Assembly (NCBI GenBank): GCA_964532395.1 | Contig: CAZHHS010000002.1 | Span: 222 to 32,937, forward strand | Length of the DNA: 32,716 nucleotides | Reading direction: 5' to 3' | Source: an uncultured Desulfobacterales bacterium | Lineage (GTDB): Bacteria; Desulfobacterota; Desulfobacteria; Desulfobacterales; C00003060 | Shown: positions 2,600 to 30,476 of the stretch, piece by piece | Layout of the letters: every line of letters starts with the position of its first letter | Numbering within the stretch: the first letter of the stretch is position 1 | Notes under the pieces: model-generated | Told to the model about the DNA's origin: nothing | What the model saw: the letters and a program-made list of their open reading frames with translations, nothing else | Database searches by the model: none | Made by a program: the position numbers and the translations under genes

Positions 2600-2611
2600 A
2601 ATGATCCTGCC

Positions 2612-8104: not shown

Positions 8105-8138
8105 TATTTCAGTATTGCATACCGGAAAGGCTACCGAC

Positions 8139-9020: not shown

Positions 9021-9472
9021 ATATGTCCGTCGAAACGGGAATCGTTGAAAGCATTGAAAACGGTTGGGCCCACGTATTGACCCAACGCAAGGGCAGCTGC
9101 GAAGGCTGTAGTCACAAGGGGCACTGCCATATCATCCCCGGCATGGATAAAATGAGTGTAAAGGCACGAAACGCCGCCCAGGCCCGGGTGGGAGACCGGG
9201 TCGAGCTCCGGCTAAGTTCGAAAACGCGACTCAAGGGCCTTTTTGTCATGTATATGTTTCCGGTCATCGGGCTCCTGGTCGGCGCCTTTTCAGCGGACGG
9301 TCTGTCAAAGCTGATCGGGCTGAACCGGGATTTCGGCCTTTTGGTGTTTACCCTACTGGGTCTGGTGCTGGCACTCCTTATGGCCCGATGGGTCAGCCGA
9401 CGTATGGAAAGACGACAAGAACTCACTCCGGTGGTCTTTCGAATCCTCCGAAGCACCAAAGCGCCTTCCTAA
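9017..9472 (+). CDS. RseC/MucC-family (SoxR-reducing-system-like) membrane protein
   Basis: 151 aa. The N-terminal soluble domain has a Cys/His cluster (CEGCSHKGHCH), followed by two TM helices. Its ATG overlaps the fdhD stop (ATGA). Confidence 0.7.
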   Translation: MNMSVETGIVESIENGWAHVLTQRKGSCEGCSHKGHCHIIPGMDKMSVKARNAAQARVGDRVELRLSSKTRLKGLFVMYMFPVIGLLVGAFSADGLSKLIGLNRDFGLLVFTLLGLVLALLMARWVSRRMERRQELTPVVFRILRSTKAPS

Positions 9473-12170: not shown

Positions 12171-14007
12171 CCTCCCGCCCCGTGTCCATCAAGACCACGG
12201 TCACCTTCGTTCCCCGGCCCGGCTCACTTTCAATATTTATTTCCCCGCCGTGGGCCTCGACAATCTTGTGGACGATGGCCAGACCCAGACCGGTTCCGTC
12301 GGCCTTGGTCGTAAAATAGGGATCAAATATCCGCTCTCGATCTTGTGTCGGTATTCCCGGCCCATCGTCGCTAATGGTAATCATCGTGCATTTCTTTGCC
12401 TCGTTTCGAGACACCGCCACCGCCATCGTGCCCCCGTCCGCCATGGCTTGGATGGCATTCAGGTACAAATTGAGTAGCACCTGGCTCATTCTGTCCGCGT
12501 CTACGTTGATCTCCGGTAAATCGTCCGGAATGACCGCTTCCAATTCGACACCTCGGGAACGGGCATCTCCCTCAATCAGTCTTAATGAATGCCGAACCAA
12601 ATCCGCCACTCGAACCGGCGCAGTAGACAATTGACTGGGACGGGCAAACTCGAGTAATTGCCCGATCACTCGGTCCAACCGTTCCACCTCTTGGATCATG
12701 ATCCTGGCCGTTTCCTGATCTTCCGGCACTTCCCGGAGCTTTTCCTTGAAATAGGTGGCGAACCCCTTGATGGAGCTCAACGGATTGCGAATTTCATGGG
12801 CCACACCGGCCGCCAGGCGACCCACAGCGGCCAGCCGTTGACTCCGTTTCACTTCTTGTTCCAAACGCCGCACTTCCGTAAGATCACGAAAGATAAAGAC
12901 ATATCCCAGGAAGGCCCCGCCCTCCCGTCGCACCACGGAAGCACTCACGCGAAGCGGGACAATGGCATTCGCACCGACTCTGCATTCCATATCTTGCTCC
13001 ACGATGGTGTTCTTGTCCTTTAACTCCCGGCTCAGCTGCCACAGCTCCGGTGGTAATGCCTCCTCGGCCGACTCACCGATCACATACGTGTGATACTTGC
13101 CCAAAATGGTTTCCGCCGTGTCGTTGAAGGCGGCCACCCGACCCCTTTCATTTGTCGCCACCAGCCCCATGGGAAGATGGCCCACTACCTGGTCGGAATA
13201 CGCCTGTACCTCGGCCAAAGACCGCCGGGCCAGCTTATATCCCTGGGCGAGAAACAACGATACCATTCCGGCCAAACCGGCAAAGAGGACTCCCGCAGAC
13301 ATCATGAGCGTATTTCGGGTCGCTTCAGCCCTCGCGGACTCCAGCGGGGCCACTTCCAATCCGACGAATATGAAATGAACGGGCCGACGGGGACCTTGCG
13401 GGGGATTCCAGTAAAACCGGCACCAGTCCCCCTGATTGGCCCCGTTGTTTCCAAAAGGACCGTCAAACCTTTCCCACTCCCATGACTGGGTGCGGGACAT
13501 GATCATCCCGCGGCGCCGCAGGGTCTTGCGGGCATGGGTTATACCGATCGGGGAAAAGGCCCGGTATACTTCAAATACGGAGGTTCCGTCTTTCATCCGG
13601 ACCCGCTGCCATTTTTCATCATCTTCACTCTCCAGCACCACCTCCGCATTGAGTTTGTGATGAACCTTTCCAATCCGTTCCGGATCGCTGTGTGCCACCG
13701 CCCTTCCCCGTTCATCCGTAACCGCCAAGTAAACGATGCCGGGTTCCCGTGCGGTTTCCACGAGTAGCCGCTGCACCTGCATACCGCTCCATCCCATGCC
13801 CATCATGCCCGTTCTGGCACCGGCCTCAAAGGAACGTATCAGGGCGGCCCCCTTTTCCACCAGGAGCCGGGTCATGTTTTCCTTGTCCTTGTTGATGCTG
13901 TTGGCCGCCATAAAAAAGGCGATCGGCGCCAGCACGGCGAGACTGCCCAACACCGCCCATGGTAGGACCAACATCCACAAACTTCTTTTCTCTGTTTTTC
14001 TCATCAC
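12154..14007 (-). CDS. Membrane sensor histidine kinase with periplasmic domain (ZraS-like)
   Basis: 617 aa with two TM segments flanking a periplasmic domain of about 190 aa, a PAS-like region, HisKA (GVAHEIRNPL) and HATPase (DDGPGI, GTGLGLAIV). It overlaps the regulator start by 17 nt. Confidence 0.9.
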   Translation of the reverse strand: MMRKTEKRSLWMLVLPWAVLGSLAVLAPIAFFMAANSINKDKENMTRLLVEKGAALIRSFEAGARTGMMGMGWSGMQVQRLLVETAREPGIVYLAVTDERGRAVAHSDPERIGKVHHKLNAEVVLESEDDEKWQRVRMKDGTSVFEVYRAFSPIGITHARKTLRRRGMIMSRTQSWEWERFDGPFGNNGANQGDWCRFYWNPPQGPRRPVHFIFVGLEVAPLESARAEATRNTLMMSAGVLFAGLAGMVSLFLAQGYKLARRSLAEVQAYSDQVVGHLPMGLVATNERGRVAAFNDTAETILGKYHTYVIGESAEEALPPELWQLSRELKDKNTIVEQDMECRVGANAIVPLRVSASVVRREGGAFLGYVFIFRDLTEVRRLEQEVKRSQRLAAVGRLAAGVAHEIRNPLSSIKGFATYFKEKLREVPEDQETARIMIQEVERLDRVIGQLLEFARPSQLSTAPVRVADLVRHSLRLIEGDARSRGVELEAVIPDDLPEINVDADRMSQVLLNLYLNAIQAMADGGTMAVAVSRNEAKKCTMITISDDGPGIPTQDRERIFDPYFTTKADGTGLGLAIVHKIVEAHGGEINIESEPGRGTKVTVVLMDTGREDDGRV

Positions 14008-14188
14008 TTGCCTGTGCGTGTTTCCAACGGCCTACAGGCCCCCAATCCACCCCAATCTTTGGGTGAGCAATTTTCAGGCCACTAGCCCTACCCCCCGGGG
14101 CGGCCGACCGATTCGCCGCCGCTTGAGGCGCAACAGGACCCGGAAGGGGGGATAAGCATGGCATGCCCCCCTTCAACCCGGGTATTTT

Positions 14189-14204
14189 GTATCCACATGG
14201 ATAC
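14189..14204. promoter_or_regulatory. Perfect palindrome GTATCCA-CA-TGGATAC; candidate enhancer (UAS) for the sigma-54 activator
   Basis: It lies 130-145 bp upstream of the -24/-12 promoter. A half-site, GTATCCAC, recurs at 14231-14238. Confidence 0.5.
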
Positions 14205-14333
14205 GGACGCGAAAGATTACTGTGAACAAAGTATCCACTTGGGAGCTCCCCGTCAACGGTAAACTCTGCTCAACGAATGGCGCTACGTTTTTTTATCCAA
14301 ACATATCAAGATGTTATATTTAGCAAGGCGCCC

Positions 14334-14348
14334 TGGCACATCCTTTGC
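14334..14348 (+). promoter_or_regulatory. Sigma-54 (-24/-12) promoter TGGCAC-ATCCT-TTGC
   Basis: Exact match to TGGCAC-N5-TTGC (GG-N10-GC), 60 nt upstream of the zraP-like ATG and divergent from a sigma-54 two-component pair. Confidence 0.8.
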
Positions 14349-14407
14349 CAGTATGGGTTGCCAATTGGTATTGAACAACAACTTAAACAAGAAGGAGGTC
14401 GCAGAAA

Positions 14408-14893
14408 ATGAAAAAATGGATAACCACTTTGGGCATTGTGATACTGGGTGTATGCATCGCCATGCCCGCCTTTGCGGGGCACGGAAAGCGAAAGGGCCAC
14501 GGGTCTTGTTGGAAAGGATCCGATACCCGCGCAAATCTAACAGAGGAACAACAGGCCAAACTCGAGGCACTGCACGACGACTTCTACGCGGACACTGCCG
14601 AAATCCGACATGAACTCTGGGCCAAGACGGATGAGCTGGGGATTCTTCTCGACCGCACCGATCCCGACCTGGAAAGGGCGAAATCCTTGCAGAAAGATAT
14701 CAGCGAACTCAAAGGCCGAATGGCCCAAAAGCGACTCCACCGTAATATCGAAGCCCGGAAGATCGCGCCCGACGCGTCGATCGGCCGTGGTCACGGCAAA
14801 GGTCCGCACGGCCGGCGCCACATGAGGGGCGGTCAAGGAGAAGGCCATCCCTGGGGAAGGGGGCGAGGGTGTCAGCGTCCCTGCGGGTATTAA
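14408..14893 (+). CDS. Periplasmic CpxP/Spy/ZraP-family protein with Gly/His/Arg-rich tails
   Basis: Signal peptide (ILGVCIAMPAFA), LTxxQ motif (LTEEQQAKLEAL), helical core, and His/Gly-rich N- and C-terminal segments (GHGKRKGHG; GRGHGKGPHGRRHMRGGQGEGHPWGRGRG). Confidence 0.8.
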   Translation: MKKWITTLGIVILGVCIAMPAFAGHGKRKGHGSCWKGSDTRANLTEEQQAKLEALHDDFYADTAEIRHELWAKTDELGILLDRTDPDLERAKSLQKDISELKGRMAQKRLHRNIEARKIAPDASIGRGHGKGPHGRRHMRGGQGEGHPWGRGRGCQRPCGY

Positions 14894-15057: not shown

Positions 15058-15291
15058 ATGTACAACTATGACGTAACTAACAGACTGGGATCACCGATGT
15101 TGGATATGCCGAAAGGCTTTGATTTCGGCGAGCTGGCGATTCAACGACCCGACAACCTGCCGCTTGAGGTGGATTCCAAGTTAAGCCGATATAACGAGGC
15201 AATTAAACGTTTCGACATTCAGGAGGCGGAACAGGCGGCAGACGAAATCCTGGAATGGCTCCACTCCAACGGTACCGCAGATCCGACCTGA
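15058..15291 (+). CDS. Hypothetical acidic 77-aa protein
   Basis: Strong SD (AAGGGAGGAG) 4 nt upstream of the ATG. No motif I recognise. Confidence 0.5.
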   Translation: MYNYDVTNRLGSPMLDMPKGFDFGELAIQRPDNLPLEVDSKLSRYNEAIKRFDIQEAEQAADEILEWLHSNGTADPT

Positions 15292-15368: not shown

Positions 15369-17360
15369 TCACACGGCCTCGGCAGTGTCCACCTTTTTAT
15401 GCAGGTCATTTAATCCGGACAGTCGACGACTACGAACCAGAGGTAGATGGAGACCCAATACCGCACTATGCGGATTGCAAAGAAAATCCATGCGCTTTTC
15501 AACCGATCGGAAGGTGGATTCCCCGGATTGAAACCTTTCGATCTGCTCGGCGACGTCCTCAGTGGCCGCCGCTGCCACGTCAAGCCCCAGCCGTTGCGCT
15601 ATTTCCTGTAAGATCTCTCTGTGAAGACGGGACGCCGCCAGGGGAGAAATGACAGGGGAAAGCGTACGCAGGTTCTCCGCGTAATCCACGATCGTACCAT
15701 GACTCTCATAGACCGTGGCAGCGGGAAGTACGAGGTCGGCCTCGCAGGCAAGGCCTGACAAATGCGAACATTGGGCGATCACGAATCCCGTGTTCTCCGG
15801 TCTCGAAACCGCCACGTCTCCCAATGCATATAAGACGTCCGGGCTATCCGTATCGATGGTCGGCTTCCCGGTAATCCCCATCAAGAGCGTGCCTTTTCCG
15901 TTGGCCTCAAAAGGGACGGATAAGACCTGACCCTTTTTCAAGGCCAAATTGCGAGATGCCTGGAAGAAAGCCGGTATCGTCACGATCACCGGCCGATTTG
16001 CCTGGGCGTAAAGCGCCGCCGCCGCTTGCTCGGCTTCATGGTTCACCGACACCGGGTTTTGTTCGCTATTCAGTATTTCGGTCAGGCGCTGAATCGAGGC
16101 GAGCTCGTCCCCGGCAAGGACTGCGTGCGCCACCTGAGCAATCCGTGTATCCGCGGCATTAACGACCACCAGTTTGGTACCACGCCGAACCATGTGTCGC
16201 AGCGTAACGTCCAGTGCAGGAAACACGCCCTCCCATTGGGACGGCGCCAATCCGACCAGCACAACCAGATCCGCCGCCCGAATATCCACCTGTCCCGCAA
16301 TAAGCGACGGCACATCGCCGTATAACCCGACCGTCGAAGACGCCGCCTGAAAGCCGGCCGCCTCGGTCAAGCGGCGAACGGTCAGTAAGTCTTCGTTTAA
16401 CAGATTTCCCGCGGTCACGATTTCCTTGGTTGTGGCCCTTTGACAGGCCTCGATGAGGACAGACAAAGCATCTTCCCAGGCAACCGTTGTAAACGTTCCG
16501 TCAATTTTTTGTAAAGGGGTGCTCACCCGGGTATCATCATCGATACCGTCAAACCCGAATCGGCCGACGGCACAGATATACTCTTTCGCCGTATCGCCGT
16601 CACCGGGGGCGTTTACTTTTTCCACTCTGCCCGCCCGGACGCTTACCGACGTGCTGCACGCGTCCGCACAAGACAGGCATATAGAAGGACGACGGACATA
16701 CTCCCATTCTCTACCCCGGTATCCGCCGGCAGGGACCTCGGTAATGGCATTGACGGGACATACCTCTACACAACTGCCGCAAAAGGTACACCCCGATTCT
16801 TGAAGCGGTCGGTCGGCCGCAGTGGTGACACGGGATCCCACACCTCGGCCAAAAAAATCGAGGACCGACGTGCCCTGGGCCTTACAGACGCGGACACACC
16901 GGCCACACAGAACACAATAGTTGGGGTCTCGACGGATAAGGGTATTGTCTTGGGCCACGGGAAAATCAAACCGCTTTTCAGTAAATGAAGATTTCTTGAG
17001 ACCCAGGTCGTAAGCATATTCCTGTAATCTGCATATACTCGCCTTCGTACAAGTCATGCAGTCCATGGGATGCATAGAAAGGATCAAATCGATGACATAC
17101 CTTCTATGTGTTCGGAGGACTTCGGTTTGCGTACTTACCTCCATGCCGTCCTTGGCCCGTGTGGTGCAAGCCGCCATGGGTCGTTTCAAACCGGCCACCT
17201 CCACCAGGCAGAGTCTGCACGCCCCGATTCCCTTATACCCTTTCAAATGGCAGAGGCTGGGGATGTGGATTCCCGCCTCTTCGGCAGCATCCATTAGCGT
17301 GATGCCTTCCGGCACCTCAAGCACTTGTCCGTCCATTGTAAGTTGTATTGAACCGGCCAT
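15369..17360 (-). CDS. NuoG/HydA-N-terminus-like Fe-S subunit with a degenerate molybdopterin-oxidoreductase domain (no catalytic site seen)
   Basis: It has a 2Fe-2S ferredoxin fold (C...GACRLCLVEV...C), a His/Cys cluster (HPMDCMTCTKASIC) and 2x[4Fe-4S] (CVLCGRCVRVC, CTFCGSCVEVCP). A MopB-type CLSCADAC...C cluster is followed by ICAVGRFGFD. There is no Cys/Sec-His active-site motif, no H-cluster motif and no C-terminal cap domain. Start set at ATG 17360 (GGGAGGA SD); the track start 17417 is the alternative. Confidence 0.8.
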   Translation of the reverse strand: MAGSIQLTMDGQVLEVPEGITLMDAAEEAGIHIPSLCHLKGYKGIGACRLCLVEVAGLKRPMAACTTRAKDGMEVSTQTEVLRTHRRYVIDLILSMHPMDCMTCTKASICRLQEYAYDLGLKKSSFTEKRFDFPVAQDNTLIRRDPNYCVLCGRCVRVCKAQGTSVLDFFGRGVGSRVTTAADRPLQESGCTFCGSCVEVCPVNAITEVPAGGYRGREWEYVRRPSICLSCADACSTSVSVRAGRVEKVNAPGDGDTAKEYICAVGRFGFDGIDDDTRVSTPLQKIDGTFTTVAWEDALSVLIEACQRATTKEIVTAGNLLNEDLLTVRRLTEAAGFQAASSTVGLYGDVPSLIAGQVDIRAADLVVLVGLAPSQWEGVFPALDVTLRHMVRRGTKLVVVNAADTRIAQVAHAVLAGDELASIQRLTEILNSEQNPVSVNHEAEQAAAALYAQANRPVIVTIPAFFQASRNLALKKGQVLSVPFEANGKGTLLMGITGKPTIDTDSPDVLYALGDVAVSRPENTGFVIAQCSHLSGLACEADLVLPAATVYESHGTIVDYAENLRTLSPVISPLAASRLHREILQEIAQRLGLDVAAAATEDVAEQIERFQSGESTFRSVEKRMDFLCNPHSAVLGLHLPLVRSRRLSGLNDLHKKVDTAEAV

Positions 17361-17401
17361 TGATCCTCCCTGACACACCTTTTCATCCACGGTCTGCACA
17401 A

Positions 17402-18013
17402 TCAGTAAACACCGCATTTATACGCTTCAGCAGCGATCTTCGTCGCCGGTTTGTCCGCCACGACAATGGCCCCGGCAGGACATACCTCGAGACAATCCCC
17501 CCTTTTGAAGCATCGTTTCTCCCGGATCTCGAAAGGCGAAAACCCTGTGTCATGCAATGCCGTTTTCTCCATACCCAAAATGGCATTGTATTCACACACG
17601 GCCTTACACTCACCACACATGGTACACCTGTCGGGAACAATCCGATACTCGATGAACGCCTCACATGCCCGGTCCGAGCACTTTCCCTCCGTATGCGCTG
17701 CAAAGGCGTCATATGCCATACATTCCAACAAATAGGCGGCCGTGTTGCCGCCCTTCTTGCACAATGAGCCGACCTGCATATTTTCCGCTATATATCGGAG
17801 GGCAGCCAAATCTCGCTGGTCACCCCGTCCGTCGGCGATGCGAGCCAGCCTGGCTTTTGCCTCAACGGTGCCAAGGGCACAGGGAAAACACCGACCACAC
17901 ATGACCTCTGAAAGAAACCGGTCCACATAGGCGGTACACCTTTGGACGGGGCAGCGCTTTTCCTCCGCCTCTGCTCTTAGCCGGGCATCAATCGTGCGTT
18001 TCTTTGACTCCAC
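17402..18013 (-). CDS. Small Fe-S protein: NuoF-C-terminal-like [4Fe-4S] domain fused to a 2x[4Fe-4S] ferredoxin domain
   Basis: CGRCFPCALGT...(about 40 aa)...SLCKKG mirrors the N3-cluster motif SCGKCxPCR...LC of NuoF. It is followed by CTMCGECKAVCE and CFKRGDCLEVCP. Confidence 0.75.
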   Translation of the reverse strand: MESKKRTIDARLRAEAEEKRCPVQRCTAYVDRFLSEVMCGRCFPCALGTVEAKARLARIADGRGDQRDLAALRYIAENMQVGSLCKKGGNTAAYLLECMAYDAFAAHTEGKCSDRACEAFIEYRIVPDRCTMCGECKAVCEYNAILGMEKTALHDTGFSPFEIREKRCFKRGDCLEVCPAGAIVVADKPATKIAAEAYKCGVY

Positions 18014-18021
18014 ACATCACC

Positions 18022-20361
18022 TCAATAGATCTCACGCGCCATGTAAACCACTTCCGGCAAGAGATAGGACACCAAGTCTCTGTAGGTAATGATACCCGCG
18101 ATCTTATCGTCCTCCACCACCGGCAGGTGCCTCTTCTTCTGGTCCGAAATCACCGACATTGCGGCGCTCACGTCCACGGACGCCTTAAATGTAATCAGGT
18201 TTCGGCTCATTGCGCTACGGATCGGTCGGCTCCCAAAAGCCACCCCCTTGGCTGTGAGATGAACCACGTCTCTTTCCGTAAAAATACCCACCAGCTGGTC
18301 ATCTTCGTCCACGACCAGAACCGCGCCGATGTTTTTATCCACCATAAGCTTAACCGCTTCCGAGATGGGGGTGTCTTGGGAAACGGTATGTACGACTGAG
18401 GGCTTCGATTCCAAAACATCTCGCAGTGTCATATGGACTCTCCTTTCGATGACCTCCAGACTCTCAGCAGGGATCTTGAATTCTTCCGTAAGTTCAAATT
18501 GCCGCTTTTTGAGGATGCGAACCGCGTCGACCGGACAGGCCTCATAGCAAGCTCCGCATTTTGTGCAATACGCCTGGTCCACGAAATAGGCGTCTTTGAC
18601 AACCTTTATGGCGTCGAACGCACAGGCATCTTCACAAAACCCGCAGCGGAAACACTCACCGACGTTTATCACGAAAAAACCGGTTCCTTTACAACTCCCG
18701 GCTCGACAGTATCGGTCATATACGTGTTCCCGATACTCTTCTCGGAAATACTTGATGGCGCTTAAAACCGGGTTGGGCGCCGACTGTCCCAGGCCGCACA
18801 GCGAGCCCTCCTGAACGAAACGCCCCAACTCGACCAGTCGCTTGATGTCTCCCCGTTCGCCCCGGCCTTGGCTGATTTTTTCCAATAGTTGGAGCATTTG
18901 ATAGGTGCCGATCCGGCAGGGCGGACACTTCCCGCACGACTCCGCCTGGGTAAAAGCCAGGAAATAGCGGGCCACATCGACCATACAGGTGTCCTCGTCG
19001 AGAACAACCATGCCGCCCGAACCGACCATGGAACCCACCTTGTTCAAAGAATCAAAGTCGACCGGCATATCCAGATGCTTCTCGGGAATACAGCCCCCGG
19101 ACGGCCCCCCGGTTTGTACCGCTTTAAACCGCTTTCCCCCTTGTATGCCGCCACCAATATCGAAAATGACCTCCCTCAAGGTAATGCCCATCGGAACCTC
19201 GACCAAACCCGTGTTGACCACTTTTCCCGTAAGGGCAAAGACCTTGGTACCCGGGGAGGTCCGAACCCCGATACGGCTGAACCATTTCCCGCCCTTTTCA
19301 ATGATGGGTGGCAGGCATGCGTACGATTCGATGTTGTTCAGATTGGAGGGGTATCCCCAAACCCCGCCGCCCGGATTGGACAGCCGCGGCGGTCTGGGTC
19401 TCGGAAACCCCCGTGCCCCCTCGATGGACGCCACCAGCGCCGTCGATTCACCGCATATGAATGCCCCCGCCCCCTCCCGAATATCCAGGTGCAGGGACAT
19501 CCCGGTCCCCAGAATATTTTCGCCCAGCAAGCCCAACTCCTCGGCTTGGTTGATGGCGATTCTCAGATTCTTCACCGCCCGTGGATATTCATGACGCACG
19601 TAGATGAATCCGTACGATGCCCCGATAGCATACGCACACAGGAGCATCCCCTCGATCAGGCTGTGCGGATCGCCCTCCATGATCGCACGATCCATGAAAG
19701 CACCGGGATCTCCCTCATCGCCGTTGGCAATGACAAACTTCACATCCCCCGGGGCCTTCTTGGCGTGCCGCCACTTGGTACCCGCCGGGAATCCCGCGCC
19801 CCCTCTACCCCGCAAATAGGCCGTCTCGACCTCCCGGAGGACGTCGTCGGGAGTCATGGACCGGAGCGCCTTCTGAATGGCGGTATATCCACCCGTAGCT
19901 ATATAGTGCCGTATGTTCGTCGGATCGATGCGCCCGTTCTTTTTAAGGACTATGCGGTCTTGTTTTCGGTAAAACGGGATAGAAGAGAGCCGCTCGCACG
20001 GCTGTGACGTGTCGCGATCCATATAGAGCAGACGCCGTATCGGCGGCCCGGCAGACACGGCATTGGTAACCAACGCGGCGGCGTCCGATTCTCTCACGCG
20101 CTGATAGAAATACCCTTTGGGGTCGATTTGCACCAGCGGCCCTTTCTGACAAAGCCCTTGACATCCCGTTTTGATTACCTCGACATGGGAACCTTTCCGT
20201 TTGTTTTCCGCCTCAATGCCCTCGACTAACCGACCGGCACCCGAAGCCAGACAGGCAGTCCCCGTACAGACCCGAATGCGTTCCCTGTCCGGAGGGAAAA
20301 CCTCATCACGTAAATATTGGCGCCAGCTATCGAGTTCTTGAACACTCATTGCATATGTCAT
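18022..20361 (-). CDS. NuoF/HydB-like NAD(P)H-binding flavoprotein with N-terminal Trx-like [2Fe-2S], C-terminal 2x[4Fe-4S] and a C-terminal CBS pair
   Basis: N-terminus CTGTAC...CQGLC. Core motifs GRGGAGFPAG, GDEGDPGAF and ESCGKCPPCRIGT...SLCGLGQSAPNP. Ferredoxin motifs CFRCGFCEDAC and CTKCGACYEACP. The last 136 aa form two CBS repeats (ISEAVKLMVDKNIGAVLVVDEDDQLVGIFTERD ; VSAAMSVISDQKKRHLPVVEDDKIAGIITYRD). Confidence 0.9.
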   Translation of the reverse strand: MTYAMSVQELDSWRQYLRDEVFPPDRERIRVCTGTACLASGAGRLVEGIEAENKRKGSHVEVIKTGCQGLCQKGPLVQIDPKGYFYQRVRESDAAALVTNAVSAGPPIRRLLYMDRDTSQPCERLSSIPFYRKQDRIVLKKNGRIDPTNIRHYIATGGYTAIQKALRSMTPDDVLREVETAYLRGRGGAGFPAGTKWRHAKKAPGDVKFVIANGDEGDPGAFMDRAIMEGDPHSLIEGMLLCAYAIGASYGFIYVRHEYPRAVKNLRIAINQAEELGLLGENILGTGMSLHLDIREGAGAFICGESTALVASIEGARGFPRPRPPRLSNPGGGVWGYPSNLNNIESYACLPPIIEKGGKWFSRIGVRTSPGTKVFALTGKVVNTGLVEVPMGITLREVIFDIGGGIQGGKRFKAVQTGGPSGGCIPEKHLDMPVDFDSLNKVGSMVGSGGMVVLDEDTCMVDVARYFLAFTQAESCGKCPPCRIGTYQMLQLLEKISQGRGERGDIKRLVELGRFVQEGSLCGLGQSAPNPVLSAIKYFREEYREHVYDRYCRAGSCKGTGFFVINVGECFRCGFCEDACAFDAIKVVKDAYFVDQAYCTKCGACYEACPVDAVRILKKRQFELTEEFKIPAESLEVIERRVHMTLRDVLESKPSVVHTVSQDTPISEAVKLMVDKNIGAVLVVDEDDQLVGIFTERDVVHLTAKGVAFGSRPIRSAMSRNLITFKASVDVSAAMSVISDQKKRHLPVVEDDKIAGIITYRDLVSYLLPEVVYMAREIY

Positions 20362-20376
20362 CTTTGTCCAAGCCTT

Positions 20377-20862
20377 TTAGGTATCGATGATTCGCTGAAT
20401 CACTTGACCAACCCCGTCACAAGAGAGTTCTCCCACCACGTCGCTGTTGACGGAAATGACGGGAGCCAACCCGCAACACCCGATGCAACTCACCGTTTCC
20501 AAAGTCATGGCCAGATCCGGGGTGGTACCCCCGACCGGCACCTGGAAGCGGTCTTGGAGGAGGGACAGCACCTCGGAAGCCCCCTTCACATGACACGCCG
20601 TACCCATACAGACCTTCACCACTGTCCTGCCTCTCGGTGAAAAGTGGAACTGGTCATAGAAACTGGCCACTCCGTATACCTCCGCCAACGGAATAGACAA
20701 TCTCTGTGCAAGCGCTTGTAATACTTCAGGGGCCAGATATCCCAATTCATCCTGGAGTCGATGGAGAAGAGGAATCAGCAGGCCTCTGTCTCTCGCGAAT
20801 GCAGGGGTTGTTTGGGCCGCTCTTTCCAGGGCGCCACTCATCATCAGTGCGTCGATATCCAT
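20377..20862 (-). CDS. NuoE/HydC-like thioredoxin-fold [2Fe-2S] subunit
   Basis: 161 aa with the CMGTACHVKG...CIGCCGLAP pattern typical of NuoE/HndA/HydC. Confidence 0.9.
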   Translation of the reverse strand: MDIDALMMSGALERAAQTTPAFARDRGLLIPLLHRLQDELGYLAPEVLQALAQRLSIPLAEVYGVASFYDQFHFSPRGRTVVKVCMGTACHVKGASEVLSLLQDRFQVPVGGTTPDLAMTLETVSCIGCCGLAPVISVNSDVVGELSCDGVGQVIQRIIDT

Positions 20863-20928
20863 CAGGTCACCTCGTTGATAAGAATCTGTTGAATCGATTC
20901 TGCAATCAGTAGTCTATTTCCCAGTGAA

Positions 20929-20944
20929 TACCAGTTCCGTGCCA
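20929..20944 (-). promoter_or_regulatory. Possible sigma-54 promoter TGGCAC-GGAAC-TGGTA upstream of the nuoE-like operon
   Basis: Perfect -24 element with correct spacing, but the -12 element reads TGGT instead of TTGC. It lies 67-82 nt upstream of ATG 20862. Confidence 0.3.
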
Positions 20945-21035
20945 ACGAAACAGGGCCTGGAAGCCTTCAGCTCACGATGGCGTAACCTTTTGATATTCTG
21001 TTTTTATTCCGTCCGTGTCAGTTACCACCCTCAAA

Positions 21036-21074
21036 ACGATTAAAAACCGGCCGGGGCGTTTCGCCCCAACACCG
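21036..21074 (-). terminator. Orphan minus-strand intrinsic terminator-like hairpin
   Basis: On the minus strand, GGGGCG-AAA-CGCCCC (extendable by G.U/G-C pairs) is followed by GGCCGG and then TTTTTAATCGTTTT. No annotated minus-strand gene ends here. Confidence 0.4.
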
Positions 21075-21154
21075 AACAAAAACACCCCAAGCATGATCTC
21101 TCGAGAGAGCGGCTGCATCGCTTCAGCCGAACAGCGCCTGGAAAACAAGACCAG

Positions 21155-21183
21155 TAGACATGGGCAGCTAAAAAACGTATACT
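21155..21183 (+). promoter_or_regulatory. Sigma-70-like promoter (TAGACA-17 nt-TATACT) giving a roughly 260-nt leader for the S1-domain gene
   Basis: Good hexamers with an exact 17-nt spacer. The next plus-strand gene starts at 21450. Confidence 0.45.
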
Positions 21184-21311
21184 CAAATTTTGCACCCCAA
21201 TTTTAACCGGACTGCCTCCAACACTGGAGTCTAAGGCCGCTATATGCAGGAAGGTGCGGGAAGGAATTTCGTTGAACGAGGGCCTACACGGATAGCGCCC
21301 ACCTTCCTTTC

Positions 21312-21400
21312 GGGAACCGCTTGACGGAATTGTAGGCCCGAGTGAAGCGGAGTTCCTTCCCGCACCGGGCAAAAAGCCTTGTACCGGGTGCAACACTTGA
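21312..21400 (+). repeat. Copy 1 of an 89-90-nt two-hairpin repeated element
   Basis: Compared with 25630-25719 in the same orientation, 84 of 89 aligned positions are identical, plus one 1-nt indel. Hairpin 1 is GGAA/CCGCTT...AAGCGG/TTCC. Hairpin 2 is GCACCGG...CCGGGTGC. Confidence 0.75.
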
Positions 21401-21449
21401 GACGTATACTTCCTTTTCAAGTCAATAACCGAAACAACGGAGGGATTGG

Positions 21450-22682
21450 ATGGACGAAACAGGTAAAGCGGATTCCGTAAACAAGCCGGCGGAAGAAGAT
21501 TTTGAAGCGCTCTTGGAACAAGGCATGGGGGACCCGGCGGTTTTTGATCCGGGAGACAAGGTAAACGCCGTCATCACCCAAATCACCCAAGACTGGACGT
21601 TCATTGACTTCGGCGGAAAGGCGGACGGCTACATCGGGACCAACGAATTTATAGATGGGCAAGCACAGATCACCGTCCAAGAGGGAGATACCCTAGACGC
21701 CTTCTTTTTACCGTCCCCACGTCATCCCATGCGGTTTACGACCCGGCTTACCGCGGAGACAGTAGAAACGGACGCCTTAACGGATCACCTGGCGGACGCC
21801 TATCATAGCGGTATCCCCTTGGACGGGACCATAGAAAAGGAGATCAAGGGGGGCTTCGCCGTTAAAATAGGCGGAAATCTCCGCGTCTTTTGTCCCTACT
21901 CTCAAATGGCCATCCACAAGACAGCAGACCCGGCCCAATACATCGGACAGAGCCTCACCTTTAAGATCATCCAGTTTGAAAAGGGCGGTCGTAATGTCGT
22001 CGTCTCTCACCGGGTCATTTTGGAGGAACAACGCGAAGAGGCCAAGAAAGCGCTTCGACAAACACTCCACGAGGGCACCACCGTAACGGGCGCCATCACG
22101 TCAATCGCCTCATTCGGCGCGTTTGTAGACATCGGCGGTCTTGAGGGCCTGATTCCCATATCGGAAATATCCTGGGGCCGGGTGGCGGATATTCACGACC
22201 ATTTACGCATAGGACAAGAAGTGGACGTGGTTGCCAAGTCCTTGGACTGGGAAAATGACAAGTTTTCATTCAGTCTCAAAGAAACCCGAACCGACCCGTG
22301 GGAAAACGTTCCCGCCAGCTATCCCGAAGGCTCACTCCATACGGGTACCGTCGCCCGCCTGGCCCCATTCGGGGCCTTCGTCACTCTTGAACCGGGCGTA
22401 GACGGACTCCTGCACATTTCGGAACTCGGCAAGGAAAGGCACATCCATCACCCCAAAGAGGTGTTGGCGGAAAACCAGGCCGTCGAGGTGAAGATCAGTC
22501 GGTTGGATGTCAAACAAAAACGTCTCTCCCTTGAACTGCCCACAAAAGACCTGCAACAAAGCGATGCATACCAAAAATATGTGGCGCAGAACCACAGTTC
22601 CGGTTCCATGGGGACCCTGGGCGATCTTTTGCGCGCCCGTATGGACCGGACGGACCAGAAGGACGAAAAGAAGAAACCGTAG
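21450..22682 (+). CDS. Multi-S1-domain RNA-binding protein (ribosomal protein S1-like)
   Basis: 410 aa with about four S1/OB repeats (e.g. GTTVTGAITSIASFGAFVDIGGLEGLIPISEIS ; GSLHTGTVARLAPFGAFVTLEPGVDGLLHISEL) and a GGAGGG SD. Confidence 0.85.
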   Translation: MDETGKADSVNKPAEEDFEALLEQGMGDPAVFDPGDKVNAVITQITQDWTFIDFGGKADGYIGTNEFIDGQAQITVQEGDTLDAFFLPSPRHPMRFTTRLTAETVETDALTDHLADAYHSGIPLDGTIEKEIKGGFAVKIGGNLRVFCPYSQMAIHKTADPAQYIGQSLTFKIIQFEKGGRNVVVSHRVILEEQREEAKKALRQTLHEGTTVTGAITSIASFGAFVDIGGLEGLIPISEISWGRVADIHDHLRIGQEVDVVAKSLDWENDKFSFSLKETRTDPWENVPASYPEGSLHTGTVARLAPFGAFVTLEPGVDGLLHISELGKERHIHHPKEVLAENQAVEVKISRLDVKQKRLSLELPTKDLQQSDAYQKYVAQNHSSGSMGTLGDLLRARMDRTDQKDEKKKP

Positions 22683-26920: not shown

Positions 26921-26942
26921 ACCTCCGGATAATTAATGACCA

Positions 26943-27215: not shown

Positions 27216-27293
27216 CGAAACACTCCTTACTTCTCAAACTCAATTCGTGTAAAGGGCAAATGCCCGTTGGTCTTATGCGGACCCCCTTTAGTC

Positions 27294-27452
27294 CTACTCC
27301 TTTTCAAAATCCTCTTTGGCCGCCCCACACACGGGACAGGTCCAATCCGCCGGAAGATCTTCAAACTTGGTCCCCGGCTCGATACCGTTGTCCGGATCCC
27401 CCTGGGCCGGATCATACACATAGCCACATACCGTACATACATACTTGTCCAT
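27294..27452 (-). CDS. rub: Rubredoxin (52 aa)
   Basis: Not in the ORF track (<60 aa). The translation [52 protein letters not shown] has the two CxxCG knuckles and the conserved YxYDP / FEDLPxDWxCPxCG signature. GGAAAGGAG SD. Confidence 0.92.
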
Positions 27453-27504
27453 GTCTCAAACTCCTTTCCAATAGTTTAGTTTCAAATCGAAACCCCATAC
27501 CCTT

Positions 27505-28520: not shown

Positions 28521-30476
28521 TTACATCTCCCGGCGGGCCGCCATATCAAACAAGACCCGCTCTCTCGCCTTATCGATACCCAGGGTCTTTCTCTTTTCGT
28601 CAATATGAGAAATCATCAGTCGCGCCATCTCCTGAGGATCCGGGGCAAACCCCCACTTGCCCATACCCTGCGTCTCAAGGCCGCTGAACAACAGCTCATG
28701 GAAACCGGTCTTCTCCACAATGGGGAAGGTAACACCAAAGACCGTATACACCCCGGAGGCCACGAAATAGTGGCCGATCGAAATGGCCTTTTCACTCATC
28801 CACTCCGGTGCCGCCCCCGCCGCCGGGAGTTCGGCAATGCTGTTGCCCAGCCCCCCCTCACGAACCATTTCACTGGCAGCAATGAGAATCCGGCTGTTGT
28901 CGACACAGGATCCGCATCCCAGTACCGGCGGCATACCCACCGTTTCACAAACTTCCGCCAATCCCGCGCCCGCCATCTCGGCAGCCTCGGGACGGTAAAA
29001 TCCCTGTTTGGCCAAGGCGATTTGAGAGCACCCGGTCTGTAAAACCAAGACATCATTTTTGATGAGTTCCTTGACCAACTCCACATGGACCCAGTCTTGT
29101 TTGGCCCGGGGATTGGTACATCCCACCACACCGGCCACCCCGCGGATACGGCCATTGATAATGTTGTCATTGAGTGGCGTATAGGAAGACCGGAAACTGC
29201 CGCCCAGCATATAATTGATGTATTCGTGAGAGAACCCGTGAATCCCTTCGTTTCGGTCCTCCGGAATGTCTACGGGAATTCGGCGATTTTTGAACCGTTC
29301 GATGGCCAACTCCATAATCCGGTCCGTACACTTGCGGGGACTCAGTTCCTCAAATTCGATATGCTCAGCGCCATCGATGTGACACCGGGGGTTGGTGGTG
29401 AAAAACTTGGTGCCGTAGCATTGAGCCACTTTGCTCAAACTCTGCTTGATGCATTGTACGTCCACCCCCATGGCATCCACCGCCCCGGTGATCAAGACGG
29501 CTTCGGTGGACATGAAATTGCCGGCGTGGGGAATTCCATGGCGGGACAACATCTCCGCCCCCGAGCAGCACATCCCCACCAGGTTGATCCCTTCCGCACC
29601 GGCACTTTTAGCCGACTCAAGAAATTGGGGATCGTTTGCCGATGCCAGTATGGACTCAAACAGGTTCGGCTCGTGACCATGGATAATCACATTGACCTGG
29701 TTCTTCTCCAACACGCCCATATTGACATCCCCGGCCGTGGGTACGGGCGTGCCGAAGAGGATATCGGAAATCTCGGTGGCCACCATCGACCCCCCCCACC
29801 CATCGGCCAAGGCCGTGCGGCTGCACTGTCGGGTAATGTTCTCGTAATCCTGGTCCACGCCCATGTGGGTCCGGTGCATGAGTTCCATGATTTCCCGCAT
29901 CGCCCCACGGGGAACTATCCCCTGTTTTCGCCAGGTTTCCAAAGTCGCGGGCGGCACCCGCTTGGCGAACGGAATTTCTCCTTCCACCTGCATATAGGTC
30001 CGCTCCAATTCCTTGTATAAGTCTTCCGCAATCTCCTTTGCGTCACGACCCTCTGTATCGATTTCTACGGATTGAGCCACTTTTTTCAGTTTATCCGTAT
30101 CTTTGATCTTGTACTCGGTGAGTTTTCCCTCCACCACCTCTCTGAATACGTCAAGCATACTCATGCCGTGATCCGTATGTGCCGCCGCGCCACTGGCCAC
30201 CATCCGGGCAAAATTTCTGGCCATAATGGTGTCGATCGTAGCCCCACACACCCCCACCTTGCCGTAGGGATCCTTGGCATTCAACCGACAGGGCCCCATG
30301 GAACAGTGTTTACAACAGGCGGAGTCAGCCCCGATCGGACAGGCCTTCATCGTGGCGGCCCGGTCAAACGCCGTTTCCACCCCGTCAGCTTTGGCCTTCT
30401 CCAACATCTGAGCCGTCGCGTCACATGACGTTACTTCATGAACATTGAGTTGTTTGCGCTTTTCCGTCTTCGCCAT
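28521..30476 (-). CDS. cooS: Anaerobic Ni,Fe carbon monoxide dehydrogenase catalytic subunit
   Basis: 651 aa. The N-terminal D/B-cluster pattern is CPIGADSACCKHCSMGPCRL...C. C-cluster ligand contexts IIHGHEPN, GMCCSG, DVQCI, GCTNPR, TGCS and GCGSCVDNSR are all present. Confidence 0.92.
   Translation of the reverse strand: MAKTEKRKQLNVHEVTSCDATAQMLEKAKADGVETAFDRAATMKACPIGADSACCKHCSMGPCRLNAKDPYGKVGVCGATIDTIMARNFARMVASGAAAHTDHGMSMLDVFREVVEGKLTEYKIKDTDKLKKVAQSVEIDTEGRDAKEIAEDLYKELERTYMQVEGEIPFAKRVPPATLETWRKQGIVPRGAMREIMELMHRTHMGVDQDYENITRQCSRTALADGWGGSMVATEISDILFGTPVPTAGDVNMGVLEKNQVNVIIHGHEPNLFESILASANDPQFLESAKSAGAEGINLVGMCCSGAEMLSRHGIPHAGNFMSTEAVLITGAVDAMGVDVQCIKQSLSKVAQCYGTKFFTTNPRCHIDGAEHIEFEELSPRKCTDRIMELAIERFKNRRIPVDIPEDRNEGIHGFSHEYINYMLGGSFRSSYTPLNDNIINGRIRGVAGVVGCTNPRAKQDWVHVELVKELIKNDVLVLQTGCSQIALAKQGFYRPEAAEMAGAGLAEVCETVGMPPVLGCGSCVDNSRILIAASEMVREGGLGNSIAELPAAGAAPEWMSEKAISIGHYFVASGVYTVFGVTFPIVEKTGFHELLFSGLETQGMGKWGFAPDPQEMARLMISHIDEKRKTLGIDKARERVLFDMAARREM

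What the first reader, a model, noticed from the sequence alone, without database searches (positions are those of the whole stretch)
15369..20862. Orphan HydBC/Bfu-type NuoE-NuoF-NuoG-like module with no catalytic partner
- Four co-directional genes encode a NuoE-like 2Fe-2S protein, a NuoF-like flavoprotein, an extra small Fe-S protein and a NuoG-like subunit.
- The NuoF-like protein has both the N-terminal Trx-like 2Fe-2S domain and the C-terminal 2x[4Fe-4S] domain. This is the architecture of HydB/HndC subunits of flavin-based electron-bifurcating Bfu enzymes.
- In the NuoG-like subunit's MopB-like domain I find no Cys/Sec-His active site, no H-cluster motif (TSCCP) and no C-terminal cap.
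- The module therefore has the NAD(P)H/ferredoxin-handling core of a bifurcating hydrogenase or formate dehydrogenase but no visible third-substrate site. The nearest candidate partners in the window are only fdhD (about 6 kb away) and cooS (about 8 kb away).
Basis: partly seen in the sequence, partly recalled or inferred. Interest (0 to 1): 0.65.

Follow-up and report, generated by a model that had tools for sequence, protein, structure and literature searches.

The report
Bfu redox module detached from CO dehydrogenase
These four genes encode an NADH- and ferredoxin-handling iron-sulfur module with no catalytic site of its own; in most relatives the same four genes sit directly behind the CO dehydrogenase/acetyl-CoA synthase genes, so its likely partner is a CO dehydrogenase encoded elsewhere.

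Summary
Window 15369-20862 (- strand) holds a tight four-gene operon:
- a NuoE-like BfuC;
- a 203-aa protein "X", a copy of the C-terminal Fe-S half of BfuB;
- a 663-aa NuoG-like BfuA with all five Fe-S sites. Its MopB-like domain lacks the Sec/Cys-His loop, the MGD motif and the cap.

"Orphan" holds only locally. Among 41 distinct relatives with enough upstream DNA, 35 have cooS immediately upstream of bfuC. The usual order is acsE-cdhD-cdhE-acsB-cooS-bfuC-bfuB-X-bfuA.

The window's Desulfobacterales-like clade is nested beside those loci. It has lost the linkage, and it has a clade-specific sigma-54-type promoter and a lost Cys ligand in X.

The cooS 7.6 kb away looks like a paralogue rather than the cognate partner. 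It is about 46% identical to the module-linked CooS proteins, which are about 68% identical to each other.

Best reading: a Type-3-like member of the Bfu family that couples NAD(H) and ferredoxin to a Ni-CODH. Bifurcation and the partner are inferred, not shown.

"Codh-Bfu" was previously predicted from only four Firmicutes sequences with a different architecture, so this is a new variant of a known kind. Interest is moderate.

The parts
20377..20862 (-). bfuC: NuoE/HydC-like thioredoxin-like [2Fe-2S] subunit (161 aa)
   Evidence: PF01257, E 4e-44. Best PDB matches are the HydC subunits of bifurcating hydrogenases 8a6t_C (8e-41) and 7t2r_C. Below the NuoE equivalog cut-off (132.6 < 141).
18022..20361 (-). 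bfuB: HydB-type flavoprotein (779 aa). It has an N-terminal Trx-like [2Fe-2S], an FMN/NAD(H)-binding NuoF core, an N3-type [4Fe-4S], a hinge Cys3-His site, a C-terminal 2x[4Fe-4S] domain and a C-terminal CBS pair.
   Evidence: Pfam domains. 7t2r_B (A. mobile NiFe-HydB) E 1.7e-218 over residues 26-614, with the cluster cysteines aligned except A. mobile Cys476, which is Ser here. Below the NuoF equivalog cut-off (455 < 558.65).
18025..18444 (-). CBS-pair extension of bfuB (about residues 640-779); a likely adenosyl-ligand sensing domain
   Evidence: PF00571, two stretches, E 8e-26. Present in all window-clade loci and in roughly half of the related BfuB genes.
17402..18013 (-). X: 203-aa Fe-S protein, a copy of the C-terminal half of BfuB. 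It has an N3-type CxxCxxC...C site, a Cys/His hinge-like site and a two-motif ferredoxin domain. The second Cys of the second motif is Arg here.
   Evidence: PF10589 plus Fer4_7. 7p5h_B residues 465-623, E 1.6e-19. Invariant ligands. The Cys is replaced by R/K/T/S only in the window clade. The gene is conserved between bfuB and bfuA in essentially all relatives.
15369..17360 (-). bfuA: 663-aa NuoG/NiFe-HydA-like scaffold with clusters A1-A5 and a cofactor-less MopB-like domain
   Evidence: Pfam. Ligands C37/48/51/65, H97/C101/104/110, C149/152/155/159, C191/194/197/201 and C228/231/235/263 are invariant. Deletion of the Sec/Cys-His loop and no cap. Sequence and fold matches tie between 7t2r_A and complex I NuoG.
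20929..20944 (-). sigma-54-type -24/-12 element TGGCACGGAACTGGTA, 67-82 nt upstream of the bfuC ATG
   Evidence: TTGGCACrGAACTGGTATTC is invariant in window, L001, L020 and L004 while the flanks diverge. The exact pattern occurs only upstream of bfuC in the six window-clade loci among 102 loci. The -12 element is GT rather than the consensus GC.
20983..20996 (-). IHF-site-like ATATCAAAAGGTTA between the palindrome and the -24/-12 element
   Evidence: Matches WATCAA-N4-TTR (read). The ATATCAA core is invariant in the four-way alignment. The consensus is from my own knowledge.
21053..21067 (.). Perfect palindrome GGGGCG-N3-CGCCCC about 110-140 bp upstream of the -24 element; a candidate enhancer-binding-protein site (alternatively a terminator-like hairpin)
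   Evidence: Unique in the window. Conserved in L001 and L020 and partly in L004. Also scored as terminator-like.
28521..30476 (-). cooS: Ni-CODH catalytic subunit (651 aa). It is a candidate partner, but it is in a separate transcription unit and is probably a paralogue of the module-linked cooS.
   Evidence: PF03063, E 5e-169. Passes TIGR01702 (592.8 > 478). 44.6-49.5% identical to 41 module-linked CooS, versus a median of 68.5% among those. Separated from the module by the opposite-strand S1 gene.

Best explanation
The four genes encode a Bfu-type electron-transfer module.

- BfuB binds FMN and NAD(H), and carries the extra Fe-S domains that mark the ferredoxin branch of bifurcating HydABC-type enzymes.
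- BfuC supplies the [2Fe-2S] cluster next to the flavin.
- BfuA is a non-catalytic wire with five Fe-S clusters.
- X adds up to three more clusters plus a B2-like Cys/His site. It is the likely adaptor to a separate catalytic subunit, or a second ferredoxin-docking branch.

The family this module belongs to is a dedicated partner of Ni-CO dehydrogenase, usually the CODH of CODH/ACS. The inferred reaction is 2 CO + 2 H2O + NAD+ + 2 Fd(ox) <-> 2 CO2 + NADH + 2 Fd(red) + 3 H+.
- It would run towards CO2 reduction in autotrophs.
- It would run towards CO oxidation during acetyl-CoA cleavage in sulfate reducers.

In the window's Desulfobacterales-like clade the module has been unlinked from cooS/acs. 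It is transcribed on its own from a sigma-54-type promoter, and BfuB carries a CBS pair that probably gates activity by an adenosyl ligand.

Shown here: gene content, cofactor-ligand conservation, absence of a catalytic site, synteny in relatives, and promoter conservation.

Inferred: complex formation with CODH, use of ferredoxin, bifurcation or confurcation, the role of X, and the roles of the CBS pair and sigma-54.
For: - Domain architecture and ligand conservation.
- Closest solved relatives of BfuB and BfuC are subunits of proven bifurcating enzymes: 7t2r, 8a6t, 7q4v, 9n5u and 7p5h.
- BfuA has no catalytic site. It matches cofactor-less NiFe-HydA and NuoG equally well.
- Synteny: cooS lies 15-480 nt upstream of bfuC in 35 of 41 distinct loci with at least 1.5 kb of upstream DNA, mostly as acsE-cdhD-cdhE-acsB-cooS-bfuC-bfuB-X-bfuA. 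With partial CooS hits counted, the split is 42 linked to 7 unlinked.
- Further acs-linked or Prismane-linked cases were reached through X homologues.
- In an NJ tree the window clade sits beside CODH-linked loci.
- Window BfuB is 71% identical to L006 BfuB, the same as the median among CODH-linked loci (72%). The module is therefore an in-family orthologue.
- Literature: the Bfu family and a predicted Codh-Bfu (PMC9304861). NuoEFG-like COGs were noted in WLP-type Ni-CODH contexts (PMC6344411). The NiFe-HydABCSL structure shows how a cofactor-less HydA wires to separate catalytic subunits (PMC8880783).
Against: - In the window and its clade (L001-L005, L020, L100) no cooS or acs gene is in the operon.
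- The local cooS is 7.6 kb away, behind an opposite-strand gene, and is only about 46% identical to module-linked CooS. In L004, a cytochrome c3 gene occupies the spot where L001 has cooS.
- Three other relatives are also unlinked (L010, L053, L086), and L010 is basal in the NJ tree. The ancestral state is therefore not settled.
- X in this clade has lost a Cys ligand, which could mean a changed partner.
- Gene adjacency does not prove a physical complex.
- CO oxidation does not thermodynamically need bifurcation, a point also raised in PMC9304861.
- A. mobile B2 ligand Cys476 is Ser in the window BfuB.
- The NJ tree has no support values.
Confidence: 0.5

Rival explanations
1. Repurposed stand-alone module. 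After losing linkage to CODH/ACS, the clade's BfuCB-X-A works either as a self-contained NADH:ferredoxin oxidoreductase or with a new, unidentified partner. It would be under sigma-54 and CBS control.
For: - The stand-alone operon is conserved at BfuA identities of 58-100%, with its own clade-specific promoter.
- A clade-specific Cys-to-R/K/T/S change gives a [3Fe-4S]-type motif in X.
- The local cooS is a paralogue.
- Other unlinked cases sit next to different redox genes: Sec-FDH plus FTHFS in L053, and NfnAB-like genes in L086.
Against: - BfuA keeps all five clusters, including the A4/A5 arm. X is retained, which argues for a continuing need to wire to something.
- BfuB and BfuA show no accelerated divergence relative to CODH-linked orthologues.
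- A Bfu core with only two substrates would have no third reaction to couple.
Confidence: 0.27
2. NADH-input module of an 11-subunit complex-I-like Nuo enzyme encoded elsewhere (a 'Nuo-Bfu'), as is common in Desulfobacterota that lack nuoEFG.
For: - BfuA matches complex I NuoG as well as it matches NiFe-HydA, in both sequence and fold.
- Nuo-Bfu is a proposed Bfu type (PMC9304861).
Against: - In Nuo-Bfu the bfu genes sit inside the nuo operon. No nuo gene was identified in the window's Pfam-scanned ORFs or in the tables of called genes for the related loci.
- None of the three subunits reaches the NuoE/F/G equivalog cut-offs.
- Relatives are linked to cooS/acs, not to nuo.
Confidence: 0.08
3. 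Electron module for a separate formate dehydrogenase (HylABC-FdhF2-like), given fdhD about 6 kb away.
For: - FdhD is present at 7941-9020.
- One relative (L053) has the module next to NuoEF-like genes, a Sec-FdhA and FTHFS.
- G. acidurici Fdh-Bfu uses a BfuA with A1-A5 plus a separate FDH subunit.
Against: - No FDH catalytic gene was found in the window.
- In L053 the FDH brings its own NuoE/NuoF-like genes.
- Only 1 of about 41 informative contexts is FDH-adjacent.
- fdhD lies beyond the ZraPSR-like unit and on the other strand.
Confidence: 0.07
4. A decaying remnant of a former CODH/ACS operon with no current function.
For: - Loss of linkage to cooS/acs.
- One lost Cys ligand in X.
Against: - All reading frames are intact. 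Every other cofactor ligand checked is conserved, apart from A. mobile Cys476, which is Ser in BfuB here.
- The operon and its promoter are conserved across lineages down to 58% BfuA identity.
Confidence: 0.03

Closest known systems
Acetomicrobium mobile electron-bifurcating NiFe-HydABCSL (PDB 7t2r/7t30); Type 3 'NiFe-Bfu' of Schut et al. 2022
   Same: - Best PDB match for BfuB (E 1.7e-218) and BfuA (E 9e-54); second-best for BfuC (1.6e-39, after 8a6t_C).
- The BfuBC core has the same domain set.
- BfuA is about 670 aa with clusters A1-A5, has no catalytic cofactor, and wires to separate catalytic subunits.
   Different: - There are no NiFe small or large subunit genes here.
- An extra subunit X lies between bfuB and bfuA.
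- BfuB carries a CBS pair.
- A. mobile B2 ligand Cys476 is Ser here.
- The usual genomic partner is cooS/acs, not hydSL.
Predicted 'Codh-Bfu' of Firmicutes (Acetohalobium arabaticum, Clostridium cellulovorans; Schut et al. 2022, PMC9304861)
   Same: - A Bfu core genetically coupled to a Ni-CODH.
- Placed in BfuB clade 49 together with NiFe-Bfu, which is also this module's best PDB match.
- Extra genes lie between bfuB and bfuA.
   Different: - Codh-Bfu rests on 4 sequences, all from Firmicutes. It is Type 2 (BfuA lacks A3 and A5), with CODH plus two Fe-S subunits sandwiched between bfuB and bfuA.
- In the present family BfuA has A1-A5, cooS lies upstream of bfuC inside an acs operon, and the only inserted gene is X.
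- The window itself has no linked cooS.
Respiratory complex I NuoEFG / Nqo1-3
   Same: - Homologous subunits.
- NuoG likewise has a cofactor-less MopB-like domain. The fold match is as good as that to 7t2r_A.
   Different: - NuoF lacks the N-terminal [2Fe-2S] and C-terminal 2x[4Fe-4S] domains that BfuB has here.
- Scores fall below the NCBIfam equivalog cut-offs.
- No nuo membrane-arm genes were identified nearby.
NAD-dependent formate dehydrogenase FdsGBA, and HylABC-FdhF2 / StnABC
   Same: - The same E/F/G-type scaffold.
- StnC (8oh5_C) and the related 9bov_A also align over the MopB-like region.
   Different: - No Sec/Cys-His loop, no MGD motif and no cap.
- No GltD/NADPH domain.
- No adjacent fdhF.

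Membership tests
Bfu (BfuABC) electron-bifurcating family (Schut et al. 2022) | BfuB with an FMN/NAD(H)-binding NuoF core and the B1 (N3-type) [4Fe-4S] | tested here: met
   PF01512 E 4e-39 and PF10589 E 9e-34. GRGGAGFP, GDEGDPGAF and CGKCxPC...C align with 7t2r_B.
Bfu (BfuABC) electron-bifurcating family (Schut et al. 2022) | Extra BfuB clusters absent from non-bifurcating homologues: an N-terminal Trx-like [2Fe-2S] and C-terminal 2x[4Fe-4S] | tested here: met
   PF01257 at residues 23-99 and Fer4 dicluster at 565-615. All Cys align with A. mobile HydB.
Bfu (BfuABC) electron-bifurcating family (Schut et al. 2022) | B2 hinge cluster ('4Cys + His' in A. mobile HydB) | tested here: inconclusive
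   The equivalents of C438, the His and the two Cys of 'H..D..C....C' are present. A. mobile Cys476 ('QKIC') is Ser here ('EKIS') and Thr in 8a6t_B. The metal content cannot be read from sequence.
Bfu (BfuABC) electron-bifurcating family (Schut et al. 2022) | BfuC with the C1 [2Fe-2S] | tested here: met
   PF01257 E 4e-44. The alignment to HydC 8a6t_C keeps the C..C...C..C motif.
Bfu (BfuABC) electron-bifurcating family (Schut et al. 2022) | Tightly coupled reduction of NAD+ and ferredoxin by a third substrate | not testable with these tools
   Needs enzyme assays.
Type 3 Bfu (BfuA with the A3 cluster plus separate catalytic subunits) | BfuA retains A1-A5 and has no catalytic domain of its own | tested here: met
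   The ligand sets of all five clusters are invariant in 15 sequences. There is no active-site loop, cap or H-cluster domain.
Type 3 Bfu (BfuA with the A3 cluster plus separate catalytic subunits) | Additional catalytic subunit genes in the same cluster | tested here: not met
   The window operon holds only bfuC-bfuB-X-bfuA. The feature is met in 35 of 41 relatives, where the catalytic genes are cooS and acs.
Codh-Bfu as defined by Schut et al. 2022 | Ni-CODH gene inside or adjacent to the bfu cluster | tested here: not met
   cooS lies 7.6 kb away in another transcription unit and is probably a paralogue. It is adjacent in most relatives.
Codh-Bfu as defined by Schut et al. 2022 | Type 2 BfuA (lacks A3 and A5) | tested here: not met
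   The A3 and A5 ligands are present and invariant.
Respiratory complex I NuoEFG | Scores above the NCBIfam NuoE/NuoF/NuoG equivalog cut-offs, with nuo membrane-arm genes nearby | tested here: not met
   132.6 < 141, 455.3 < 558.65 and 284.8 < 470.05. No nuo genes were found in the window.
Mo/W-bisPGD formate dehydrogenase alpha subunit | Sec/Cys-His active-site loop, MGD-binding motifs and a C-terminal Molydop_binding cap | tested here: not met
   The loop is deleted, GQNNVQG is absent and the cap is absent in an alignment with Sec-FdhA (L053) and FdsA (L014). PF01568 does not hit.
[FeFe]-hydrogenase HydA | H-cluster domain | tested here: not met
   No Fe-hydrogenase large-subunit domain in the Pfam scan. 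PDB matches to HydA cover only the N-terminal Fe-S part, residues 5-283.

The most novel reading that the evidence does not exclude
BfuC-BfuB-X-BfuA defines a widespread, uncharacterised class of NAD(H)- and ferredoxin-coupled (confurcating or bifurcating) CODH/ACS. In this class a BfuB-derived adaptor subunit X wires the Bfu core to the Ni-CODH. That would let Nitrospirota-type autotrophs pay for CO2 reduction to CO partly with NADH instead of only with low-potential ferredoxin.

The window's clade would be a derived offshoot. It has been detached, rewired (a [3Fe-4S]-type site in X) and placed under sigma-54 control, with a CBS pair on BfuB as in about half of related BfuB genes. It may have a new partner.
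Probability: 0.35. Interest if true: 0.75.

Novelty: new variant of a known kind. Interest (0 to 1): 0.5.

Why it matters
How the carbonyl branch of the Wood-Ljungdahl pathway is supplied with low-potential electrons is a central energetic question for autotrophs and acetate oxidisers living near the thermodynamic limit.

- A Bfu module hard-wired to CODH/ACS would change the ferredoxin and NADH bookkeeping of the pathway in Nitrospirota and related anaerobes.
- It would extend the predicted 'Codh-Bfu' type from four Firmicutes sequences to a large environmental family with a different architecture.
- The detached version in this window is a natural experiment. It offers the module without its usual partner, with a changed cluster ligand and its own regulation.
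- That makes it a convenient target for expression, for partner identification, and for asking what the CBS pair senses.

Tried and rejected
- The genome-contig scan with the single BfuA protein gave only 9 loci, 4 of them in-family. The alignment-based metagenome scan was what worked.
- I tested whether the neighbouring histidine kinase and sigma-54 response regulator (10785-14007) control the module. This was rejected as the simplest reading.
  - They form a zraP/zraSR-like divergent unit with the Metal_resist gene.
  - That gene has its own near-consensus sigma-54 promoter (14334-14349).
  - Its upstream palindrome (GTATCCACATGGATAC) differs from the module's.
  - The regulator upstream of the module in L086 is only 42% identical, and L086 has no such promoter.
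- I considered the conserved hairpin at 21050-21070 as a riboswitch or sRNA terminator. Rfam gave nothing at gathering score, and only one chance-level hit in 20800-21500.
- I tested the local cooS as the cognate partner. Its identity pattern argues for a paralogue.
- Read-through or Sec recoding at the end of bfuA to recover a cap domain is ruled out. The downstream DNA holds a convergent 77-aa ORF and the zraP-like gene instead.
- The AlphaFold model of BfuA was only moderate (mean pLDDT 68.6). It is good in the MopB-like domain and poor in the Fe-S regions. It could not separate NiFe-HydA from NuoG as the nearest fold.
- Literature searches found no paper describing this four-gene unit or its X subunit.

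Full report
**1. What is there**

The - strand of window 15369-20862 carries four tightly spaced genes. The gaps between bfuC and bfuB and between bfuB and X are 15 and 8 nt.

- BfuC (20377-20862, 161 aa) is a thioredoxin-like [2Fe-2S] protein (PF01257, E 4e-44).
- BfuB (18022-20361, 779 aa) has, in order:
  - an N-terminal Trx-like [2Fe-2S] domain;
  - the NuoF FMN/NADH core;
  - SLBB;
  - the N3-type [4Fe-4S] domain;
  - a C-terminal 2x[4Fe-4S] domain;
- X (17402-18013, 203 aa) is a copy of the C-terminal half of HydB. It aligns to 7p5h_B residues 465-623 (E 1.6e-19).
- BfuA starts at ATG 17360 and is 663 aa. This start has an AGGAGG upstream and agrees with homologue N-termini. Its domains are Fer2_4, the His-ligated [4Fe-4S] domain, 2x[4Fe-4S], a Molybdop_Fe4S4 domain and a Molybdopterin domain. 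It has no Molydop_binding cap and no H-cluster domain.

**2. The module has no catalytic site of its own**

I aligned six BfuA-family members with a selenocysteine FdhA found in locus L053 ('CARL-U-HAPT', TGA-encoded) and with a Bradyrhizobium FdsA. Three features stand out:
- The whole BfuA family has a deletion exactly at the Sec/Cys-His loop.
- The family lacks the GQNNVQG MGD motif.
- The family lacks the roughly 120-residue cap.

By contrast, every ligand of the five Fe-S sites A1-A5 is invariant across 15 family members.

In both sequence and predicted fold, BfuA matches two kinds of cofactor-less scaffold equally well. One is the A. mobile NiFe-HydA (7t2r_A). The other is complex I NuoG.

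**3. It is a Bfu-type core, not NuoEF**

- BfuB matches the bifurcating A. mobile NiFe-HydB over residues 26-614 with E 1.7e-218, and the cluster cysteines align. Its next-best matches are the HydB/NfnB/StnB subunits of other proven bifurcating enzymes.
- BfuC matches HydC proteins best.
- None of the three subunits reaches the NCBIfam NuoE/F/G equivalog cut-offs.
- One caveat: A. mobile Cys476, a ligand of the unusual B2 cluster, is Ser here, as it is a non-Cys residue in [FeFe]-HydB.

**4. The 'orphan' status is local**

BfuA belongs to a large family of proteins about 665-680 aa long. More than 2000 hits have E < 1e-20, and the named ones are mostly Nitrospirota/Thermodesulfovibrionales MAGs.

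*Context in distant relatives.* The first four distant relatives I looked at (45-50% BfuA identity) all gave the same order: cdhD-cdhE-acsB-cooS-bfuC-bfuB-X-bfuA, with acsE upstream where the locus reaches that far.

*The wider survey.* An alignment-based metagenome scan returned 80 loci. tblastn mapping of the window proteins and of the L006 CODH/ACS proteins gave these results:
- Of 41 distinct loci with bfuC and at least 1.5 kb of upstream DNA, 35 have cooS ending 15-480 nt upstream of bfuC.
- Counting partial CooS hits at contig ends, the split is 42 linked to 7 unlinked.
- X is present between bfuB and bfuA essentially everywhere.
- bfuB is often duplicated in tandem (2-3 copies), and about half of the copies carry the CBS pair.
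- X homologues led to two more cases. One is an acs cluster with RACo and CooC followed by bfuC...X-bfuA. The other is a Prismane-family gene directly upstream of bfuB.

*The exceptions:*
- the window's own clade (L001-L005, L020, L100);
- L010;
- L053, where the module is followed by NuoEF-like genes, a Sec-FdhA and formate-THF ligase;
- L086, where it is next to NfnAB-like genes.

*Phylogeny.* In an NJ tree rooted with FdhA and FdsA, the window clade sits beside a CODH-linked clade (L006, L019, L021, L024, L027), and L010 is basal. The tree has no support values, so this is suggestive only.

**5. The cooS in the window is probably not the cognate one**

- It is a bona fide Ni-CODH (TIGR01702, 592.8 > 478).
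- It is separated from the module by about 7.6 kb. That stretch holds an oxidative-stress-like gene set and an opposite-strand S1-domain gene, so there is no operon link.
- It is uniformly 44.6-49.5% identical to 41 module-linked CooS proteins, while L006 CooS is a median 68.5% identical to the others.
- Window BfuB is 71% identical to L006 BfuB, the same as the in-family median of 72%. The module is therefore an in-family orthologue, whereas this CooS is an outlier.
- In L004 (58% BfuA identity), a cytochrome c3 gene occupies the spot where L001 has cooS, upstream of the FMN_red-LMWPc gene.

**6. Clade-specific features**

*(a) A promoter.*
- A 20-nt element, TTGGCACrGAACTGGTATTC, lies 67-82 nt upstream of bfuC. 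It is invariant in the window, L001, L020 and L004, although the flanks in L004 are unalignable.
- The exact TGGCAC-N5-TGGTA pattern occurs only at this position, in the six window-clade loci among 102 loci.
- Together with an upstream IHF-like site (ATATCAA-N4-TTA) and a perfect palindrome GGGGCG-N3-CGCCCC at about -110 to -140, this is the layout of a sigma-54 promoter. That reading is my inference from general knowledge, and the -12 element is GT rather than GC.
- The adjacent kinase and NtrC-type regulator more probably serve the divergent zraP-like gene. That gene has its own near-consensus sigma-54 promoter and a different palindrome.

*(b) A changed ligand in X.*
- X has a second ferredoxin motif. 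In about 60 other sequences this motif reads CxxCxxCxxxC.
- In the window clade it reads CxxXxxCxxxCP, where X is R, K, T or S.
- This is the classical [3Fe-4S] signature. That interpretation is from my own knowledge and is not tested here.

**7. Mechanism (inferred)**

By analogy with NiFe-HydABCSL, whose electron path is FMN-B1-A1-A2-A3-S1-[NiFe] (PMC8880783):
- Electrons would pass between the flavin on BfuB and a separate catalytic subunit, through the BfuA clusters and probably through X.
- The C1/B2/B3/B4 branch of BfuC and BfuB would serve ferredoxin.
- With a Ni-CODH as partner, the enzyme would couple CO/CO2 to NAD(H) and ferredoxin.
- X keeps the B1-, B2-, B3- and B4-like sites of BfuB. 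It could be the CooF-like adaptor to the CODH, or a second ferredoxin-docking branch.
- The CBS pair suggests control by an adenosyl ligand.
- None of these steps has been demonstrated.

**8. Relation to what is known**

- Schut et al. 2022 (PMC9304861) defined the Bfu family. They predicted a 'Codh-Bfu' from four Firmicutes sequences. It is Type 2 (BfuA lacks A3 and A5), with the CODH genes sandwiched between bfuB and bfuA.
- Inoue et al. 2019 (PMC6344411) noted at COG level that NuoE/F/G-like proteins occur in WLP-type Ni-CODH neighbourhoods.
- I found no paper that describes the bfuC-bfuB-X-bfuA unit, its X subunit, its CBS variants or its detached Desulfobacterales form.
- I therefore file it as a new variant of a known kind. 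It passes the Bfu core tests. Its BfuA is Type-3-like. It fails the published Codh-Bfu definition on two tested points: cooS is not adjacent in this window, and A3 and A5 are present.

**9. Verdict**

- Most likely (about 0.5), this is a CODH-partnered Bfu module whose partner is encoded elsewhere.
- The main rival (about 0.27) is that the detached clade has been repurposed.
- Interest is moderate (0.5). It would be higher if the family is shown to make CODH/ACS NADH-coupled.

Noticed in passing
window 12154-14893 (HK 12154-14007 -, RR 10785-12170 -, Metal_resist gene 14408-14893 +, promoter 14334-14349 +): A ZraPSR-like envelope or metal-stress unit. A Spy/ZraP-family gene is divergent from a PAS histidine kinase and a sigma-54 NtrC-type regulator. 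It has a near-consensus sigma-54 promoter (TGGCACATCCTTTGCC), an IHF-like site (ATATCAAGATGTTA) and a perfect palindrome GTATCCACATGGATAC upstream. The same arrangement is conserved next to the module in L001-L004.
   Followed up: partly
window 15058-15291 (+): A 77-aa ORF with no Pfam hit, convergent with bfuA. A 77-aa gene is called at the same position in L001-L005. Function unknown.
   Followed up: no
window 25730-30476 (-): cooS is followed by an FMN-reductase/LMW-phosphatase (ArsC-like) fusion, a 52-aa rubredoxin (27294-27452), a small Grx-like ORF and a glutaredoxin-AhpF/TrxR-like fusion. Together they look like a thiol/oxidative-stress redox cluster. The part after cooS is conserved in L001, L004 and L100.
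   Followed up: partly
window 226-4267 (-): An Hmc-like transmembrane redox complex: a 551-aa multihaem cytochrome c3-family protein, a 4Fe-4S protein (387 aa) and an NrfD-like membrane subunit (390 aa). This fits a sulfate-reducing Desulfobacterota host.
   Followed up: no
window about 21190-21420; inverted repeat arms 21253-21288 / 21331-21366: A roughly 230-nt insertion in the leader of the S1-domain gene, relative to L001 and L020. It carries 36-nt inverted-repeat arms (81% complementary), so it may be a small mobile or structured element. There is no Rfam match.
   Followed up: partly
L018, L033, L037, L050, L055, L061, L062, L079, L082, L084, L096: Tandem duplication of bfuB (2-3 copies, with or without CBS pairs) between bfuC and bfuA in many CODH/ACS-linked loci. 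In some of them X lies between the copies.
   Followed up: no
L006 12120-14024; also L007, L021, L023, L027: A roughly 634-aa protein with no Pfam domain lies directly downstream of bfuA in one CODH/ACS-linked subclade. Identity is 63-64% between the more divergent loci.
   Followed up: no
L053 12505-19329: In one relative the module is followed by a cNMP-binding protein, a second NuoE/NuoF-like pair, a selenocysteine (TGA) FdhA and formate-THF ligase. This is the methyl-branch entry of the Wood-Ljungdahl pathway.
   Followed up: partly
window 7941-9472 (+): FdhD, followed by an RseC/MucC-family gene. The window FdhD ORF (359 aa) is about 66 aa longer than the 293-aa gene called in L001, so the true start is probably internal. 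No FDH catalytic gene was found in the window.
   Followed up: no
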